Below, piece by piece: positions 9,447 through 57,869 of a stretch of DNA of 64,000 nucleotides; the stretch's first letter is position 1; each line of letters opens with the position of its first letter. The DNA is from an uncultured Verrucomicrobiae bacterium (GTDB lineage Bacteria; Verrucomicrobiota; Verrucomicrobiia; Opitutales; JABDGR01): positions 320,001 to 384,000 of the forward strand of contig CAVXVB010000007.1 in the NCBI GenBank assembly GCA_963765205.1, written 5' to 3'. The notes under the pieces were generated by a model. The model saw only the letters and a list, made by a program, of their open reading frames with translations. It was not told where the DNA came from and did not search any database. Both the position numbers and the translations under genes were made by a program.

Positions 9447-9478
9447 AAATTAAGAATTATGAATTAAGATTTAAGAAG
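9447..9478. repeat. 7-nt-period arm (ATTAAGA family) abutting the lpxA start
   Basis: AAATTAAGAATTATGAATTAAGATTTAAGAAG. Confidence 0.8.
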
Positions 9479-9503
9479 TAAAACAAAACCGCGATTGGGC
9501 GGC

Positions 9504-12347: not shown

Positions 12348-12806
12348 ATGAACTGCCCGAAGTGCAACCACGAGGACTCAAAGGTGCTGGACACGCGCAC
12401 CGGGCGGGAGAACCGTTCCATCCGCCGCCGCCGCCAATGCCTCGCCTGCGGCCACCGATTCACCACGCTTGAGGAAACCGTGCGCGAGGGCTTTCTCGTC
12501 ATCAAAAAAGACGGCCGGCGCGAGGATTTCGACCACGCGAAAATCCTGAACAGCCTCCGCAAAGCCACCGAAAAGCGCCCCATCGAGGCCGAGCGCCTCG
12601 AACTGCTTGTCACTGAAGTCACCGACGCGCTCGAAAAGGAATACGATGTCGAAGTGCCCAGCCGCGCCATCGGCGAGCACCTCATGGCCCGCCTCAAGCA
12701 AATTGACCAGATCGCCTACGTCCGCTTCGCCTGCGTGTATAAGGACTTCAAGGACATCAGCGCCCTCGCCGAGGAAATCAAGGCCCTCAAGTCGGCGTTG
12801 GAGTGA
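12348..12806 (+). CDS. nrdR: Transcriptional repressor NrdR
   Basis: [34 protein letters not shown]-cone VIKKDG.RE.FD, D.IAYVRFA.VY. Confidence 0.96.
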
Positions 12807-12862
12807 AATATTTCCTTTTAATTCGAACAGATTCATGTCAAAGCATGGATAAGTTTTCATTC

Positions 12863-13297
12863 ATGTCCGCCAACGCCGATAGTATTCCATCGCTGCGTAG
12901 CCCTAAACGCAATTCACCAACATTAAGAGCGGTTGGCGTGGTTTTGGTTGTCTTGCTTTGTTGCGGAAATTTTATTCTATGGTGGTGGGTCATGCCTAAC
13001 TGGGAGGATAAAGCCGCATCGGTCAGTGCGAGGCTCACAGATTTTCAAATGAAGATGCTCGATTGGTCGCAATATTTGCACTCAAATCTTGCGGATCTCA
13101 TCCCGATTTTGATCGGGTTGCTTGCTCTTCAGATTGTTGCATTTAGGTGGGAATCTCGCCGGATGCGGGTGGTTGCGTGGTCAGCCGTTGCTGTGTTGGC
13201 GGTCTTCGCAGTGATTCAACTTTACTATTTTGGCTGGCCTAATTACGAGACACACGAGGAATTTTTACGTAGATCAGTTGAGCTTTTGAACCATTAG
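12863..13297 (+). CDS. Hypothetical membrane protein, lower GC
   Basis: Three predicted TM segments; start codon uncertain. Confidence 0.6.
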   Translation: MSANADSIPSLRSPKRNSPTLRAVGVVLVVLLCCGNFILWWWVMPNWEDKAASVSARLTDFQMKMLDWSQYLHSNLADLIPILIGLLALQIVAFRWESRRMRVVAWSAVAVLAVFAVIQLYYFGWPNYETHEEFLRRSVELLNH

Positions 13298-13317
13298 ATT
13301 TTCCACGGAAAGTTCCC

Positions 13318-13421
13318 GGTGAATAACTTTCCCTTCTCATCCGGGCCGTTTCCTGTCAATGCGTGGAGAACGATTTCTCCATGCCCGCCCCCGCCAAACC
13401 CTCGCCCCGACGCGCGCTGCA
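13318..13421 (+). repeat. Direct repeat copy 1 of the leader/start region of the gene at 14805
   Basis: 66 of 72 identical to 14742-14813, with weaker similarity continuing to about 13421/14848. Confidence 0.92.
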
Positions 13422-13437
13422 ATTCCTTCACCACCCC

Positions 13438-14726
13438 ATGAAAACCTGCTTGGCCATTGGGCCACTATTGCTCTCGGCCTTGGTGGCCGCCACCGCCGGC
13501 GCGCAAGATGCGCCGCCCGCTCCCGCCCAAGCCGCCGCCTCTGCTGCTGCGTCCGCCCCGGTTGCCGCACCCGCCGCGCTGCCGCCGCTGCCCGCGCCGA
13601 TGAACGTCCCGCAACCCGGTCCCGATACCGGTGCGCCTTATGCCCCGCAGCCGATTTTGCCCGGCGGGGTGGTGGTCACCCTGTTTCCGCCCGGCTCGCC
13701 CTACCTGAACATGGCGCGCGTGCATGAGCCGGAGCAATACAGCCTGGACCGCGCCGTGCCGGGGCGGATCAGCAGCATTGTCAACATCCACAATCCCTCC
13801 ATCGAGGTGCATACGGTGGACTCCAACCTGAACACCGGCGCGGCCGTCATCCTCGCTGCCGGCGGCGGGCACAACACGCTCAACGTTGGCAGTGAAAGCG
13901 CCGATTTCGTCCCCTATTTTTTCAACTACGGCGTCACCACCATCATCCTGCGCAACCGGCTGCGCACCAGTGGCTATGATCCGAAGACCGACGAGGTGTA
14001 TGACGCGCTCCAAGCCATCAAGCTGGTGCGCGCCCACGCGGCGGACTGGCGCATTGACCCGGACAAAATTGGCATCATGGGCTTTTCGGCGGGGCCGAGC
14101 TGGCCACGGCGGCGGCCGTCGAGTTTGCCGACTTTGACCAGAAAAACGACACGCCGGACAATCCGCTGGCAAAAATTTCCTCGCGGCCGGATTTTGTGGG
14201 CGTGATTTATCCCGGCCCCTCGCCGTATAGCGCGGCCAACCCGCCGCCGATTCCCCGCAATGCGCCGCCCTCCTTCATCGCCTGCGCGGGCTCGGGCGAT
14301 GAGCAGCACGCAATGTGGGCGACCGACTATTTCAAGGCCATGCTCGCGGCCTGGGTGCCGAATGTGGAAATTCACATCTATGCGGAAGGCCACCATCCCG
14401 GCGACCAGGTCGGGCCGGACGAGCCGCCCTCGACCGGTGGCCTGACTGACCGCGGTTTCATCCCCTATGGCACCTGGCAAGACCGTTTCATTGACTGGTT
14501 CCAAAATCTAGGATTCCTGGGCAAGCGCGGGGTCGAGACCAAGGCGGCCAAGGACATCGCGGCCTATATGGCGCCACCCCAGCGTGGCGGGGCTGGCCGG
14601 GGGGCCGGTGGCCGCGGCGCCCGCCGCGGCGGCGCGGGAACGGCTGCGGCTTCTGGTGCAGCTTCGGGTGCCTCGTCGTCGCCCAATGCCCCGGTGTCGC
14701 AGGGTGGCGCTCCCGCCAACCCTTAG
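13438..14726 (+). CDS. Secreted alpha/beta hydrolase (esterase-like; frameshift near 14093)
   Basis: Signal peptide, AGGG oxyanion loop, DPDKIGIMGFSAG nucleophile elbow, SRPDF..IYPG, E.HIY..G.H; in-frame upstream ATG at 13381. Confidence 0.85.
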
Positions 14727-14741
14727 GTTGGAAAAAATTCT

Positions 14742-14848
14742 GGTGAATAACTTTCCCTTCTCATCCGGGTGCATTCCTGTCAATGCGTGGAGGACGATTC
14801 CTCCATGCCCGCCACCGCCGAACCGCCCCCGCCCCTGCGCGCGCTGCA
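14742..14848 (+). repeat. Direct repeat copy 2 (leader and first codons of the 14805 gene)
   Basis: Matches 13318-13421; ATG lies 63 nt after the repeat start in both copies. Confidence 0.92.
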
Positions 14849-15278
14849 CACGTTGCTGAGCGTCGCGGTCGGCGCCGACGCCGAACTGGCGCGGCGGGTC
14901 GAGGCCGCCGTGGACTTCACCCTCGAAAATGCCGCGCCCGGCGGGCCGGACACGGCCACGCTTGGCTTCGCCGCCGAGGCTTTGCTGGGTCTGCTGACCC
15001 ATCAGGGGTGCGCGCCCAAATTTGTGCTGCTCGATTTGCGCGAGCAAACCTGGGAGCCGCTCTGGATTCGCGAGCGCGTGCTCGCCGCGCTGCGCCCGCT
15101 GGCCGGCTACCGCGAAGGCGTCCTGCTCACCACCGGCCTGCGCCGTCTGGCCTGCCCGCCCGGCCGGCGGTGGTCGGCGTCGGCACGCGGGCGTTACCAA
15201 TCGGCCATCGCCTACATCCAGGAAGCCGCCGCCATGCACACCGCCCCGACCACCGTGCTGCATTTGCTGTTTTTGTAA
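14805..15278 (+). CDS. Hypothetical protein
   Basis: GGAGG RBS upstream, GC3-rich codons, no recognised motif. Confidence 0.7.
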   Translation: MPATAEPPPPLRALHTLLSVAVGADAELARRVEAAVDFTLENAAPGGPDTATLGFAAEALLGLLTHQGCAPKFVLLDLREQTWEPLWIRERVLAALRPLAGYREGVLLTTGLRRLACPPGRRWSASARGRYQSAIAYIQEAAAMHTAPTTVLHLLFL

Positions 15279-37845: not shown

Positions 37846-40493
37846 CTATTTCTTTCCCGCCTTGCCCGCAGGCTTATCGGTTTTTTCAGGCGGGGCGGCG
37901 ATCTCCATCGCCAGCTCGCCTTTTTTCGCGTCCACGGTGAAGCGGACTTCGTGGCCCTCGCGCACGTCGCCGGCGATGAGGGCGCGGGCCAGGCGCGTCT
38001 CAACCTGTTTTTGCAAAAAGCGCCGCAGGGGGCGCGCGCCGAAGACAGGGTCGTAGCCTTTTTCCGCCGCCCAGTGCTTGGCCGCGTCGTCGAAGACGAC
38101 GCGCACGCGCTTGTCCGCCAGGCGCTTGTTCAAATCGGCGAGCAGAAGGTCCACGATTTTCGTAATTTCGTCGAGTGAAAGGGGCTTGAACAGAATCGTG
38201 TCGTCAATGCGGTTCAGGAATTCCGGGCGGAAGGCGCCGCGCAATTCGGCGAGAACGCTCTCGCGCACGCTCTCGGGGATTTCATTACCGGTGACGCCTT
38301 CGAGCAGGAAGCGCGAGCCGATGTTCGAGGTCATGACGATGACCGTGTTCTTGAAGTCCACGACGCGGCCCTGGCTGTCGGTCAGCCGCCCATCGTCCAA
38401 AATTTGCAGGAGCGTGTTGAACACGTCGGGGTGCGCCTTCTCGACCTCGTCAAAGAGCACGACGGAATAGGGCTTGCGCCGCACGGCCTCGGAGAGCTGC
38501 CCACCCTCGTCGTAGCCGACGTAGCCCGGCGGCGCGCCGATGAGCCGCGCGACGGAATGCTTCTCCATGTATTCGCTCATGTCGAGGCGCACCAGATTGT
38601 CCTCCGAGTCGAACAACGCGGCGGCCAGCGTCTTGGCCAGCTCCGTCTTGCCGACGCCGGTCGGGCCTAGAAAGAGAAACGAGCCGATGGGCCGGCGCGG
38701 GTCCTTGATGCCCGAGCGCGCGCGCAGCACCGCCTCGGCCACGAGCGTGACGGCCTCGTCCTGGCCGATGACGCGCTCGTGCAGCACGTCCTCGAGCCGC
38801 AGCAATTTTTCCTTTTCGCCCTCGAGCAGCCGCGTGACAGGCACGCCCGTCCAGCGCGCGACGATTTGCGCGATTTCCTCGCCCGTGACGGTTTCCTTGA
38901 ACAGCGTGTTCTTGCCCTCGATTTTTTCGAGGCGCGCCGATTCGGCCTCGAGTTCGGAATCGCGCCGTGGCGCAGTTCGGCGAGTTTGGTCAAATCGTAG
39001 GCGCGCTCGGCGGCCTCCATCGCGCGGCGCGCGGCCTCGAGTTCCTCGCGCACTTTTTGTTCGCGCCCGCGCTCGGCCTTTTCCGACTCCCAGCGCGCGC
39101 GCAGGGCCGCGGTCTGGGTGCGGATGCCGGCCAATTCCTTGCGCAGCACATCGAGCCGGCGCTTCGAGGCCTCGTCCTTTTCATTCTTGAGCGCGGCCTC
39201 CTCGATTTCGAGCTGCAGGACGCGGCGCGACAACTCGTCCAGTTCCTGCGGCATCGAGTCCATGTCGGTGCGGATCATCGCGCAGGCCTCGTCCATGAGG
39301 TCAATCGCCTTGTCGGGCAGAAAGCGGTCGGCGATGTAACGGTGCGAGAGGACGGCGGCCTCGACGAGCGCGTTGTCGGTGATGCGCACGCCATGGTGCA
39401 ACTCGAAGCGTTCCTTGAGGCCGCGCAAAATCGAAATCGTGTCCTCGACGTTCGGCTGGTCCACGATCACCGGCTGGAAGCGGCGCTCGAGCGCGGCGTC
39501 CTTCTCGATGTGCTTGCGGTATTCGTCGAGGGTGGTCGCGCCGATGCAGTGCAACTCGCCGCGCGCGAGCATGGGCTTGAGCATGTTGCCCGCGTCCATC
39601 GCGCCCTCGGCCTTGCCCGCGCCGACGATGGTGTGCAGCTCGTCAATGAACAGCAGCACGCGCCCCTCGGAATTTTTGATTTCGGCGAGCACGGCCTTGA
39701 GGCGCTCCTCAAATTCGCCGCGGTATTTCGCGCCCGCGAGCAGCGAACCCATATCGAGCGAGAAAATCGTCTTGTCCTTCAGCCCCTCGGGCACGTCGCC
39801 GCGCACAATGCGCTGCGCGAGGCCCTCGACAATCGCCGTTTTGCCGACGCCGGGCTCGCCGATGAGCACCGGGTTGTTTTTGGTTTTGCGGGACAGAATG
39901 CGGATGACGCGGCGGATTTCCGCGTCGCGCCCGATGACGGGGTCAATTTTCCCCTTCTTGGCCTGCGCGACCAGATCAATGCCGTATTTGCCGAGCGCGT
40001 CGTAGGTCGCCTCGGGATTTTGCGTGGTGACGCGCTGGTTGCCGCGCACGGATTTGAGCGCCTCGAGGATTTTGTCCTTGGTCAAACCGAAGCTCTTGAG
40101 AAATTTCCCAAACTCCGCCGAACCCGGCGCTTCGACCAGGCCGAGCAGCAAATGCTCGACGGAAATATACTCGTCCTTGAGCCGCGAGGCGGCGGCCTCG
40201 GCCTTCGTGATGGCGTCCTGAAAACCCTGGGTGATGTAAATCTGTCCCGCGGCCGCGGGACCGGTCACGCTCGGCAGGCGGGAGAGCGCGCGTTCGAGCG
40301 CGACCTCGACCGCGTTCGGCGACACGTCGAGTTTTTGCAAAAGCGCCGGCGTCAACCCCTCCGGCTGATGCAGCAGCGCGGCGAGCAAATGGGCATTATC
40401 CACCTGCTGGTGCGAACGCCGCCGCGCCTCGGCCTGCGCCTCAGTGACGGCCTCGCGCGCCTTTTCGGTGAATTTGTTGAGGTCTAGGTTAAT
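37846..40493 (-). CDS. clpB: ATP-dependent chaperone ClpB (frameshift near 38958; start codon unclear)
   Basis: Clp-N repeats, [22 protein letters not shown]-domain coiled coil, [23 protein letters not shown]. Confidence 0.95.
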
Positions 40494-40595
40494 GGGATGG
40501 CATCCAGTATTTCGCAGGAAACGCTTCCCGCCAACGCTTATTTCTCTTACGACTTCAATCAATAATGGTGAGGCATTTTGAAATATGGCAACGCG

Positions 40596-40649
40596 GGTAT
40601 GGACGCCTTTCCGAGGCGTCCGCGGACGGCTCGGAAAGGCGTCCCTACC
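40596..40649. repeat. REP-like palindromic doublet (GTAG type)
   Basis: GGTATGGACGCCTTTCCGAGGCGTCC GC GGACGGCTCGGAAAGGCGTCCCTACC: two inverted units, each itself a hairpin. Confidence 0.8.
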
Positions 40650-40688
40650 AAAAAACATCAACACCCAAGCAGCCCATACGCGCTACAT

Positions 40689-48941: not shown

Positions 48942-49729
48942 GGTAGTGCAACAATTTTAATCCTAAAATTTTACTTTGGGATGGGGTCCTTCTGGCTTGT
49001 GGTTAAAGTTGCTTTATGCCTATTCGAAAGATAAATGACAAATACAAACCCATTAAACACACCGCGAACCTTGGATGAGCAACGCCGCGAGTTTGCGCAG
49101 CGTCGTGGTTTGGCGATGCCTCTGGCTGGAGCGGTGGCTTGGACGATCGTCGGCGTGGCGGGCGTTTTTGTACCGCCTGGCTTGGAGGTCTGGGTGCTCT
49201 TTGGAGCCATCGGTTCCATCCTCTATCTAGGCATGTTCTTCTCCCGCTTTACGGGGGAGAATTTCTTGGACAAAGAGCGGCCCAAAAACGTGTTTGATGG
49301 GCTGTTTCTGCGCACCGTCGGCGCGGCGGTGCTGGTTTACGCCATCGCGATTCCCTTCTTTCTGGCAGACTACACCTCGTTGCCTTTGTCGGTTGGCATC
49401 CTCAGTGGTTTGATGTGGCTGCCGTTCTCTTGGATGATCGAACATTGGATCGGCACTTTCCACGCCTTGGCGCGCACCGCCCTCGTGACCGCAAGCTGGT
49501 ATTTGTTCCCAAGTTTCCGCTTCATCGCCGTGCCGGCAGTGATCGTGGCCGTTTATGCAGTGACGATCGTTGTCCTTGAAGCCCGCTGGCGGCGCATCCA
49601 CCGCGCCTAACCGGGCGATGCAGCGAACCGCTGCCGCTCCGCATTATAGCTTTCGAAGGCTTCGCCGTTCAACCATGAGCGGCGCGCACCCTCCCCTCAC
49701 CAACGCTCGCTTCAAATTGTATCACTACC
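48942..49729. mobile_element. Non-autonomous IS1-like element (no transposase) carrying a passenger gene
   Basis: TIRs GGTAGTGCAACAATTTTA and (reverse complement) GGTAGTGATACAATTTGA, 15 of 18 identical; perfect 8-bp TSD TGGGCAAT at 48934-48941 and 49730-49737. Confidence 0.85.
49035..49610 (+). CDS. Hypothetical multi-pass membrane protein (passenger gene)
   Basis: About 6 TM segments, AMPLAG..W and GLMW.PFSW; stop codon lies in GCCTAAC. Confidence 0.85.
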   Translation: MTNTNPLNTPRTLDEQRREFAQRRGLAMPLAGAVAWTIVGVAGVFVPPGLEVWVLFGAIGSILYLGMFFSRFTGENFLDKERPKNVFDGLFLRTVGAAVLVYAIAIPFFLADYTSLPLSVGILSGLMWLPFSWMIEHWIGTFHALARTALVTASWYLFPSFRFIAVPAVIVAVYAVTIVVLEARWRRIHRA

Positions 49730-49850
49730 TGGGCAATAATCAACTTCACCCCGCTCTGCATCCTCAGTCGCTCCGCCTTTTCCAGCTTTTTCCTGATTTC
49801 GCTTGCACCGGCACACCGCGCGGCTAAATCCTGTCGAGGTTTTCGCTGCC

Positions 49851-50276
49851 ATGCTCATTCACCGCCCTGCCGACGAGGCGGACTTGGATCTCCTCGCCGA
49901 GTGGAACCACCAGCTCATCCGCGATGAAGGGCATCGCAACCCGATGACCGTGCTCCAATTACGCGAGCGGATGAAAGGCTGGCTGGCCGGCGAATATCAA
50001 GCCGTCATCTTCCTCGCTGGCGCCGAAGCCGTGGCGTATGCCTTGTATAGAGAGGACGAAACAGAAATTTACCTGCGGCAACTGTTTGTGCGGCGCGACC
50101 AGCGCCGCCAGGGCTTCGGCCAAGCCGCCCTGCGCATCCTGCGGACGCAAATCTGGCCCCGCAAGCGGCTGACCGTCGAAGTGCTCTGCGCCAACACCCA
50201 AGCAATCCAATTCTATCGCCGCCTCGGCTACCAGGACTATTGCCTCCGCCTGGAAATCGTGCCGGATTCTCAATGA
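49851..50276 (+). CDS. GNAT family N-acetyltransferase
   Basis: LRQLFV...RRQG.G, N..A..FYRRLGY. Confidence 0.9.
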   Translation: MLIHRPADEADLDLLAEWNHQLIRDEGHRNPMTVLQLRERMKGWLAGEYQAVIFLAGAEAVAYALYREDETEIYLRQLFVRRDQRRQGFGQAALRILRTQIWPRKRLTVEVLCANTQAIQFYRRLGYQDYCLRLEIVPDSQ

Positions 50277-50405
50277 AAGCGCGTCCCGTTATCCTTAGTG
50301 GCCTCAGTCGCTTCCGTCGCCTCCGCTTTTCCTGATTTCGCTTGCCCCGGCGCGCCGCGTCGCCAAAACTTGCCGGAATTTTTCGCCGCTGTTGCCCGCT
50401 CCGCC

Positions 50406-55164: not shown

Positions 55165-55205
55165 GGGCGAGGGGAATTAAGAATTAGGATTTAAGAATTA
55201 AGAAG
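55161..55205 (-). repeat. ATTAAGA-family arm plus leader shared with cls (inverted copy at 57831-57873)
   Basis: 41 of 45 identical, including the ATGC. Confidence 0.88.
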
Positions 55206-56326: not shown

Positions 56327-57736
56327 TTAATTAGCGGGCTGCGCCGGCGCAGCCGGTGCGGGTTTTTGAAGCTCCAAAGCCAGCGTGGGTTGTTCCTTGT
56401 CGGTAAAGGGATCAACGTCGTCCGGATTGGGCACGGATTTAACCAAATACTTGCTGCCCCCGTTGTCTTTGAGCGAAACACCGACGGAATAAACCAGGCC
56501 CCGCGCCGCATCGTAGCGCAACGGCTGGCCGTCAAAGGGGTCCATTGGCACTTCGGGAATATATTGCGGCACCAGCTCGGCCAGTTTCGCCGGCAGGGCG
56601 TGGTGGTCGTCGTAATAGTGGCGCAGGGCAAAGCCGGCCTGCATTAAGCGATCGGTCGCGGTAGCTTGATATGCCGTTCCAAGAATGCTAGCAAGTTGCG
56701 GCAAGTTGATGGAGAGAAAATAGCGACCTCCTCCATTGGGCAATAGAATTTCCCACGGCGATATTTTCCTGTCGGCTTCGGTCAACGCCTCCGACTTTTC
56801 CCGTAGCAACGCCGCATAGGTTAATTCGGCCCCGGTTACGCCGGCCCGAAAATATTCCGCGGTTATATATCTCGTCTCGTTAAGCTTGATATTGGATACA
56901 ATGAGACGCCAAGCCCAATTGTCTTGGCTGTCACTCAGCTTGGCGACGACTTCCGGATGTATCATTGCTGTGTTTAGGCACGCAAGAGAGTATTGGTATT
57001 CGAGTCGAAAGGCTTGTTGATAACAGGGAGTCCAATCAGTTTCTTGCCCAAAAACATGGGCGAGGGAAGCAATCATGGCGGAAGAAGCTTGGGGATCGTT
57101 CAACCAGCGTATGGCTTCCCTTTGTACCAAATGGTTAATAGTCACGGCGGTAAGCGCATGGAGGATCATGCCATGACTTCCTGCCAAACGGTCACTCAGT
57201 TGTTTGGCCAGCAGGATTTGTCGCACGGCGGTTTCATAATCGCCTAGATTCTTGGCCTGCCGCGCCGTGAGTAGCAAAGACTTGCCGCTGTTGAGCAAGG
57301 GTGCGACAGGAGCCAGAGTATCAACATGCACTTGACTTGAAAATTCAAAGTAAGGTTGCGTAACGGCGGCCTCGACTTGGGCCAGCGCCGGTTGCGCCTG
57401 AGCCAAAAACGCGGAGATGAGTGCCTCGTTCGCCTGTTCGCCCAATAGAATTTTCCTCGCGGTTTCATCATCAACATCATGGGCATTAGCGAAAAGGACA
57501 AAGTCGAGTTGGGCAAGAGTGGATTTATCGAATTTCTCAATCGCATGTAGGCCATTCTGTTGGTCGGGCACGGTGGGGCTGGTGACCAGCAAGTCTGCGT
57601 CGTCGGGCAACGTCCTATCGTAGACGTAGACATATCCGATGGCACTATAGATGGCCACGGCAAAAATCACCGCCCCCGCCAGCAACCACAGCAGGGCGCG
57701 GTTGCGGCGCGGTTTTGGTTTGGGGGTGGCGGCCAT
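56327..57736 (-). CDS. Hypothetical membrane-anchored protein with pseudopilin-like C-terminal motif
   Basis: N-terminal TM; C-terminal LP..L.ELVP.Y...VP.DPF.G.PL.Y......YSVG...D.GG; lower-GC core. Confidence 0.75.
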   Translation of the reverse strand: MAATPKPKPRRNRALLWLLAGAVIFAVAIYSAIGYVYVYDRTLPDDADLLVTSPTVPDQQNGLHAIEKFDKSTLAQLDFVLFANAHDVDDETARKILLGEQANEALISAFLAQAQPALAQVEAAVTQPYFEFSSQVHVDTLAPVAPLLNSGKSLLLTARQAKNLGDYETAVRQILLAKQLSDRLAGSHGMILHALTAVTINHLVQREAIRWLNDPQASSAMIASLAHVFGQETDWTPCYQQAFRLEYQYSLACLNTAMIHPEVVAKLSDSQDNWAWRLIVSNIKLNETRYITAEYFRAGVTGAELTYAALLREKSEALTEADRKISPWEILLPNGGGRYFLSINLPQLASILGTAYQATATDRLMQAGFALRHYYDDHHALPAKLAELVPQYIPEVPMDPFDGQPLRYDAARGLVYSVGVSLKDNGGSKYLVKSVPNPDDVDPFTDKEQPTLALELQKPAPAAPAQPAN

Positions 57737-57869
57737 GCCCCAGCGTAACACTCGGCGAAATTCCGAGTAAAGAAGGAATAAGCAACGTCCAGCATCGCGT
57801 GGCCTGATTTTCCCGACCCCGCCCTTTTTCCTTCTTAATTCTTAAATCTTAATTCATAATTCCCCTCCC

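What the first reader, a model, noticed from the sequence alone, without database searches (positions are those of the whole stretch)
13318..14848. Recurrent 'borrowed leader' architecture: an accessory gene sits behind a duplicated copy of its downstream neighbour's promoter/start region
Seen: the esterase gene is flanked by a direct repeat (13318-13389 vs 14742-14813, 66/72 identical). The repeat covers 63 nt of leader plus the first codons of the downstream gene (MPAPAKPSPRRALQ vs MPATAEPPPPLRALH). The same layout recurs at GNAT/carB and hypothetical/queG, and inverted at birA/cls. Inference: three to four cases in 64 kb suggest a lineage-specific gene-acquisition route, such as insertion at a gene 5' end with a long target duplication or duplication followed by replacement. 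The new gene would immediately inherit the resident gene's expression signals. These repeats are far longer than IS target duplications, and no integrase or transposase is nearby.
Basis: partly seen in the sequence, partly recalled or inferred. Interest (0 to 1): 0.8.

Follow-up and report, generated by a model that had tools for sequence, protein, structure and literature searches.

The report
Inserted genes duplicating neighbours' gene ends
An esterase gene was slipped in front of a conserved gene, and about 100 bases of that gene's start region were copied so that it stayed whole; this is a known kind of insertion scar, found here at about two dozen gene starts and gene ends in one bacterial genome.

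Summary
The repeat is real (66/72; 87% over 107 nt). carB/GNAT holds, queG is inconclusive, birA/cls is a dispersed heptamer repeat. The pattern is not leader-specific: after removing paralogs, spare gene starts lie upstream and spare gene ends downstream (22 cases against 3 reversed, among 2546 genes), and some cargo faces the other way. This is 'insertion with long target duplication' (Furuta 2010), which already notes repeats spanning start or stop codons; here the cargo is not restriction-modification. Other genomes of the order show it too (0 of 636 E. coli genes did), and this scan noted it before on other DNA. Likeliest: enzyme-free recombinational insertion, probably homology-assisted, filtered by selection for an intact resident gene. 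Expression from the copied leader was not tested. New member of a known kind; added value is the census, the polarity and the repeated use of one target.

The parts
12348..12806 (+). nrdR (upstream core gene); adjacent to X in empty-site relatives
   Evidence: Pfam Zn_ribbon_NrdR and ATP-cone; synteny
12803..12879 (+). L0: oldest, decayed copy of the X leader and first codons (63-64% to L1/L2; 15 GC>AT vs 1 AT>GC changes); supplies the hypA start
12863..13297 (+). hypA: small low-GC (47.6%) membrane protein; its first ~12 codons derive from X; weakly similar proteins (17-30%) sit at this site in G003 (two), G007, G008
   Evidence: no Pfam or NCBIfam hit; the G008 protein has sub-cutoff PilC/GspF hits
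13318..13421 (+). L1: upstream copy of the X leader (63 nt) plus about 14 codons; its ATG at 13381 is in frame with the esterase
13438..14726 (+). alpha/beta-hydrolase (BD-FAE-type) esterase gene with own ATG; insert is the ORF plus about 17 nt 5' and 15 nt 3'; the frameshift near 14089 is probably an assembly error
   Evidence: Pfam BD-FAE, sub-cutoff PaeX/AxeA1 hits; intact 88-92% orthologs at other loci in G003, G006, G008; short-read contig has one more base there
14742..14848 (+). L2: resident copy of the X leader and first codons
   Evidence: 65-78% to congeners' single leaders, 90% to L1
14805..15278 (+). X: conserved gene of unknown function (matches in 29 of 41 genomes searched), intact
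   Evidence: no Pfam, NCBIfam or convincing Atlas hit
49762..49851 (+). upstream copy of the carB promoter region, directly before the GNAT ATG (second real case in the window)
   Evidence: G004 has glgP-carB adjacent with one copy
49851..50276 (+). GNAT acetyltransferase cargo gene
   Evidence: Pfam
50302..50391 (+). resident carB promoter-region copy (closer to relatives' carB leaders than the upstream copy in 6 of 6)

Best explanation
Each site is the scar of a gene-sized insertion with a long (about 30-135 bp) target duplication, made by recombination and not by an enzyme encoded on the insert. SHOWN: direct repeats bracket the cargo; one copy continues into an intact resident gene, the other is a truncated spare; relatives have single-copy empty sites; spare starts lie upstream and spare ends downstream; at X this happened twice, the younger cargo (esterase) lying next to X. 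INFERRED: insertions inside a gene end survive only if the duplication hands the gene back a complete start region or stop, which gives the polarity; a same-strand cargo then sits behind a spare leader as a by-product. INFERRED, about even odds: the usual route is homology-assisted illegitimate recombination of DNA taken up from a close relative (crossover in the conserved gene, illegitimate joint 30-100 nt inside its end), which leaves the old end as the spare and makes similarity stop at conserved edges. For L1 the two copies began nearly identical (own lineage or a very close donor) and the upstream one has decayed since.
For: Polarity 22 vs 3 after the same paralog filter, p 1.6e-4, mid-gene 0 of 3, random regions 0-1. 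Empty sites: nrdR-X in G001, G004, G005, G006 and one more contig; glgP-carB in G004; pilT in 4 of 5; purH in 3 of 5. Independent repeat of the event: G008 has a different cargo and a 49-bp, 96% copy of the pilT start. L1 and L2 share 20-23 states against each congener, with 0-4 the other way; 8 of 11 differences are derived in L1. For the homology-assisted step: 10 of 14 3' blocks end within 5 nt of the stop codon (4.35 expected under a conservative null, p 0.0008); several spares carry a different stop codon (fabG, rny, ubiE) and ilvC differs by 7 synonymous, 0 replacement changes; five 5' spares begin at or near the ATG; ComEC matches in 10 of 10 family genomes; no Ku (0 of 10) and no IS1634 transposase over cut-off (0 of 10); hypA-like genes sit before X without a leader copy in G003, G007, G008, as a donor would. 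Precedent: PMC2853133 section 15 (repeats often span the start or stop, leaving the target intact; mostly naturally competent species).
Against: No relative has the esterase beside X (0 of 7 family loci seen), so the donor for L1 is not observed. Over 25 curated pairs only 91 of 223 coding differences are synonymous (41%), near my rough expectation for plain duplication and decay; resident-vs-relative ends gave 78 of 151 and resident-vs-spare 13 of 31, which does not separate the models. Inserts at the gltX site in 4 of 4 relatives, and at purH in G003, carry no duplicate, so most insertions leave none. The fabG spare is kept before acpP in G000, G001, G004 and G008 and looks like the acpP promoter: an old, selected duplicate, which can explain an edge at the stop without a donor. 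ComEC also rings in 10 of 14 control genomes, so its presence says little. No conspecific genomes were available.
Confidence: 0.55

Rival explanations
1. In-situ duplication: break repair or replication template switching copies a gene from elsewhere and resumes 30-130 nt before the point it left, so both copies come from the same chromosome. Same class and same selective filter, no donor version of the target.
For: L1 is sister to L2 and most changes are in L1; L1/L2 coding differences 1 synonymous, 4 replacement; the esterase is native to the family and sits at other loci; overall 41% synonymous.
Against: Does not by itself explain the pile-up of 3' edges at stop codons, stop-codon swaps or ilvC 7/0 unless later turnover trimmed them.
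Confidence: 0.27
2. Tandem duplication of a gene junction first, then insertion into or replacement of the middle; no single insertion step.
For: The clpP-end/clpX-start junction is duplicated with no foreign cargo; tandem paralog arrays exist at queG/cls and nrdR-X in G003 and G008; PMC3457768 (passages) offers this as an alternative route.
Against: Needs two or three events at each of about 22 sites; no longer remnant of the resident gene is left in those inserts by tblastn.
Confidence: 0.12
3. A dedicated, lineage-specific machine that targets leaders so that cargo borrows them, or an IS1634-like transposase acting in trans.
For: Repeated use of the X and pilT starts; same-strand cargo starts 1-34 nt after the spare at X, carB, purH, hemL and one more site; 17 tyrosine-recombinase matches exist elsewhere in the genome.
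Against: 3' ends equally affected; opposite-strand cargo in 3 of 13 5' cases; variable lengths and unrelated targets; IS1634 not found; no inverted repeat at the esterase insert ends; seen in other families.
Confidence: 0.05
4. Assembly artefact or chance.
For: The assembly has probable one-base errors (esterase, clpB).
Against: Copies differ at 14 of 107 sites; short-read contigs match nrdR-L0-hypA and hypA-L1 with no difference; scores far beyond random.
Confidence: 0.01

Closest known systems
Insertion with long target duplication (Nobusato et al. 2000, seen only as a reference; Furuta, Abe, Kobayashi 2010, PMC2853133: passages and sections 14, 15, 18 read)
   Same: Direct repeats over 30 bp, unique in the genome, around an insert without mobility genes; single-copy empty site; repeats span translation start or stop and leave the target intact; gene fusions occur (here X start fused to hypA); mechanism unknown.
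   Different: Cargo here is not restriction-modification: esterase, GNAT, toxin-antitoxin, RDD, methyl- and glycosyltransferases, a sensor kinase. About two dozen sites in one genome, with measured polarity and serial use of one target. Empty sites are from congeners, not the same species.
Homology-facilitated illegitimate recombination (as summarised in PMC2884548 and invoked for serial arrays in PMC5361080; passages read)
   Same: A conserved gene as anchor, foreign DNA joined illegitimately, newest module next to the anchor and older ones displaced.
   Different: In those passages the outcome is replacement or displacement; a short duplication of the anchor's end is my inference. Not shown here by experiment.
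IS1549 / IS1634 long variable direct repeats (PMC2266710, passages)
   Same: Variable target repeats in the same size range (8-514 bp).
   Different: No such transposase over cut-off in 10 family genomes; no terminal inverted repeats seen at the esterase insert.
Integrative elements that carry a replacement gene end (e.g. SXT/R391 at prfC; recalled, no call)
   Same: Target gene restored by a second copy of its end; ilvC (7 synonymous, 0 replacement changes) looks like this.
   Different: No integrase in the esterase or GNAT inserts; nearest tyrosine recombinase match about 89 kb away; many unrelated targets.

Membership tests
Insertion with long target duplication | Direct repeat longer than 30 bp flanking the insert | tested here: met
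   107 nt at 87%
Insertion with long target duplication | Repeat not dispersed in the genome | tested here: met
   only the local copies
Insertion with long target duplication | Insert under 20 kb with no transposase or integrase | tested here: met
   1.3 kb, esterase only
Insertion with long target duplication | Empty site with one copy in a relative | tested here: met
   G001, G004, G005, G006; congeners, not conspecific strains; G003, G007, G008 lack the esterase but hold hypA-like genes
Insertion with long target duplication | Cargo of restriction-modification genes (Furuta's search criterion; PMC3457768 says the mechanism is also recognised for other DNAs) | tested here: not met
   no R-M family among the cargo scanned; so a member of the structural class, not of its R-M subset
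Homology-facilitated illegitimate recombination | DNA uptake machinery | tested here: met
   ComEC 10 of 10 family genomes, pilT present; competence itself not shown
Homology-facilitated illegitimate recombination | Donor with the cargo already beside the anchor gene | tested here: inconclusive
   not seen for the esterase (0 of 7 loci); seen for hypA-like genes (3 genomes) and the purH cargo (G003)
Homology-facilitated illegitimate recombination | The two copies are two versions of the locus | tested here: inconclusive
   ilvC and stop-codon swaps for; L1 and the pooled 41% synonymous share neutral or against
Homology-facilitated illegitimate recombination | RecA and anchor dependence | not testable with these tools
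   needs a cultured, transformable relative
IS1549/IS1634 insertions | IS1634-family transposase | tested here: not met
   0 of 10 genomes over cut-off; assemblies 50-96% complete
IS1549/IS1634 insertions | Terminal inverted repeats on the insert | tested here: not met
   no inverted hit at E<0.01 in 13300-14850; very short ones would be missed
Integrative element with replacement gene end | Integrase on the element | tested here: not met

The most novel reading that the evidence does not exclude
In this order, enzyme-free, homology-assisted capture at gene ends is a routine way of adding single genes: about 1% of genes carry a spare start or end, similarity stops at the promoter edge, ATG or stop codon because the spare is the displaced old end, and favoured targets (X, pilT) are reused, building small polar arrays in which each same-strand newcomer is expressed from the spare leader. 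That would extend 'long target duplication' from restriction-modification units to a general route and give a testable mechanism for it.
Probability: 0.25. Interest if true: 0.65.

Novelty: new member of a known kind. Interest (0 to 1): 0.36.

Why it matters
[quoted passage not shown] A genome with about two dozen sites, a clear polarity and edges piled at stop codons gives a set on which the rival mechanisms make different predictions. The architecture itself is published and was noted before by this scan, so a specialist would not be very surprised.

Tried and rejected
birA/cls as a borrowed leader: dispersed heptamer array. queG: the insertion is real (queG-cls gap about 200-250 nt in G001, G004, G006) but the leader match is marginal, and the gene family forms tandem arrays at this site in G003 and G008; left open. 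Leader copies before hypA-like genes in G003, G007, G008 and before the insert in G019: not above shuffles. IS1634 and Ku: not found. A sigma-70 consensus scan found no promoter in L0, L1 or L2 and no terminator at the junctions; my own motif was too crude, missing carB and purH, so no promoter is demonstrated. No RNA holder listed. X: no Pfam or NCBIfam family, Atlas hits <=0.81. attC-like string after the DUF7010 gene: fold no better than shuffles (z 0.61). Seven of 16 5'-up and five of 18 3'-down raw hits were tandem-paralog remnants and were dropped, as were 5 of 6 and 1 of 3 in the reverse directions; one kept 3' hit (C4:232006) is weak on realignment. Searches for this pattern in Verrucomicrobia and for a non-R-M census found nothing relevant; 7 searches of an open-access library do not show that it is not in print, and Nobusato 2000 and Furuta's supplements were not read. 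Scripts gave no answer; outputs 28 and 32 were cut, and counts come.

Full report
Observation. The window is G000:C7:320001-384000 of a 4.02-Mb, 12-contig assembly. The label Opitutales comes from earlier notes, not from a call of mine. The repeat is as described: 66/72, extending to 107 columns at 86.9%, with no other strong copy in the assembly. It covers 63 nt of leader and about 14 codons of X (14805-15278), a conserved gene of unknown function (29 of 41 genomes). A third copy lies right after the nrdR stop and provides the start of hypA (48/69 to L2; 0 of 5000 shuffles). The layout is nrdR-[L0]hypA-[L1]esterase-[L2]X. Short-read contigs of one run, which may be the source sample, match 12418-13196 and 13202-13424 with no difference and carry one more base behind 14089, so L0 and L1 are not assembly products and the esterase frameshift probably is. 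L2 was not covered.

The other three cases. GNAT/carB is real (78% over 90 nt; 0.003% of random pairs) but covers only the promoter region; G004 has glgP next to carB with one copy. Hypothetical/queG scores 31.3, which 0.22% of random pairs reach: inconclusive. birA/cls is the dispersed TTCTTAA array: 27 of 3226 leaders match it about as well, in line with earlier notes on heptamer repeats in this genome.

Relatives. Of five congeners with X, four (G001, G004, G005, G006) have nrdR and X 78-121 nt apart with one leader; G003, G007 and G008 have one or two small membrane-protein genes weakly like hypA and no detectable leader copy. A further metagenome contig is empty; two others repeat G005 and G003. 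None of the 7 family loci holds the esterase; intact orthologs (88-92%) lie at other loci in 3 of 9 family genomes. The insert is the ORF plus about 17 and 15 nt, so the gene arrived without, or lost, its own promoter. L1 is sister to L2 (90%, against 65-78% to congeners; 20-23 shared states vs 0-4), and 8 of 11 differences are derived in L1. L0 is older, of the genus type (54-64% within the genus, 42-44% to other genera), with GC>AT decay. Whether hypA was gained here or lost in the four empty genomes is not settled.

Genome-wide tests. I called 3666 genes with my own caller (starts approximate). Non-paralog neighbouring leaders on the same strand score >=40 in 18 of 2222 pairs against 0.79 expected; opposite-strand pairs 2 of 4292 against 1.5. 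A directional test on 2546 genes sought spare copies of the first 60, last 60 or middle 60 coding bases in non-coding DNA within 5 kb. After one paralog filter on all lists (score >=35): starts upstream 9, downstream 1; ends downstream 13, upstream 2; middles 0; 22 vs 3, p 1.6e-4. Adding cases by hand (hemL, carB, purH and others) gives 13 5' and 14 3' sites; clpP and clpX are one event. Targets are often core genes: gltX, hemL, purH, pilT, thiH, carB, carbonic anhydrase; rny, fabG, ispG, ilvC, ubiE (gene names are my reading of the Pfam hits). Cargo is varied, and in 3 of 13 5' cases the first cargo gene is on the opposite strand. So the rule is 'the resident gene is restored', not 'the newcomer borrows a leader'.

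Recurrence and range. pilT is adjacent to its neighbour in 4 of 5 relatives; G008 has a different cargo with a 49-bp, 96% copy of the pilT start. Against this, inserts at gltX in 4 of 4 relatives carry no duplicate. On 20-kb pieces, hits in the predicted direction (score >=40, not paralog-filtered, gene-score thresholds differing) were G000 24 of 2392 genes, G008 3 of 552 (800 kb of 4.4 Mb), G019 1 of 284 and G040 4 of 288 (400 kb each; two G040 hits are tandem paralogs and two are one repeat), E. coli K-12 0 of 636 (800 kb). Fisher p: 0.46, 1.0 and 0.005. It is therefore not shown to be specific to this genus or family, though it may be commoner here than in E. coli K-12.

Mechanism. No integrase or transposase lies in the window's scanned ORFs, IS1634 and Ku were not found in 10 family genomes, and ComEC was found in all 10. 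Ten of 14 3' blocks end within 5 nt of the stop (4.35 expected; p 0.0008), some with a different stop codon; ilvC differs only synonymously (7/0); several 5' blocks begin at the ATG or just before an apparent -35. The pooled synonymous share (91 of 223) does not favour it, the fabG spare looks like an old, selected acpP promoter kept in four genomes, and L1 fits simple duplication and decay equally well. I give the homology-assisted form 0.55, in-situ duplication 0.27, duplication then replacement 0.12, a dedicated enzyme 0.05. The first two share the class and the selective filter, which I hold at about 0.8.

Known or new. [quoted passage not shown] Furuta et al. 2010 (PMC2853133; passages and sections 14, 15, 18) state that the repeats often span the translation start or stop and may leave the target intact, and that most cases are in naturally competent species. 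PMC3457768 (passages) says the mechanism is recognised for other DNAs too. PMC2266710 (passages) gives 8-514 bp repeats for IS1549/IS1634. PMC2884548 and PMC5361080 (passages) describe homology-facilitated recombination and serial arrays. PMC2654758 only cites the class. Earlier notes of this scan report the same class in several other genomes, one with about 27 duplicated ends (unchecked by me). What this locus adds is three serial copies at one target, a measured polarity, and edges at stop codons. Verdict: real, partly as read, a new member of a known kind; interest 0.36.

Noticed in passing
window 14089 (esterase); window 37846-40664 (clpB in two overlapping ORFs): Probable one-base assembly errors: a short-read contig has one more base at the esterase break; clpB domains are split over two frames (not checked with reads).
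   Followed up: partly
L046:1950-2030 (G000:C5:164954-164983) and G001, G004, G008: The spare fabG 3' end is kept about 45 nt before acpP in four genomes with different inserts and reads like a promoter (TTGACG, then a -10-like word over the old stop): a gene end that doubled as the next gene's promoter, split by duplication.
   Followed up: partly
L054 (G000:C9:1420500-1421230): The clpP-end/clpX-start junction is duplicated, giving a 64-aa ORF that is only the ClpX zinc finger.
   Followed up: no
L048 (G000:C9:470396-475244): ilvC 3' end repeated after a 4.7-kb island with a transposase and an ECF sigma gene; 7 synonymous, 0 replacement differences.
   Followed up: partly
window 14742-14752 and 14805-15278: X is a conserved unknown gene after trpG-nrdR across the order; its leader core GTGAATAACTT is kept in G007 and G019 too and, read backwards, resembles a DnaA box (recalled, untested).
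   Followed up: partly
window 49035-49720: A DUF7010 gene is also inserted between glgP and carB, followed by a string recalling an integron attC start (recalled); folding gave no support.
   Followed up: partly
window 56327-57751; L080, L083: The hypothetical gene between queG and cls belongs to a family present as tandem arrays at this site in G003 (about four copies) and before cls in G008 (two).
   Followed up: partly
L096:13475-14809 and L087:2778-6443 (G008); L135:2729-4521 (G019); L152:8480-12627 (G040): Further gene-end duplications in other genomes: 105 bp at 98% (promoter plus start of a sugar-kinase-like gene), 90 bp at 92%, 42 bp at 88%, 162 bp at 91%.
   Followed up: partly
L079:1157-1231 and 2462-2536 (G008): A 75-bp, 81% direct repeat brackets an AT-rich gene inside the insert before purH; not a core-gene end.
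   Followed up: no
window 55169-55205, 57831-57867, 9448-9484: TTCTTAA heptamer arrays directly before start codons form a genome-wide leader family (84 occurrences of one 10-mer).
   Followed up: partly
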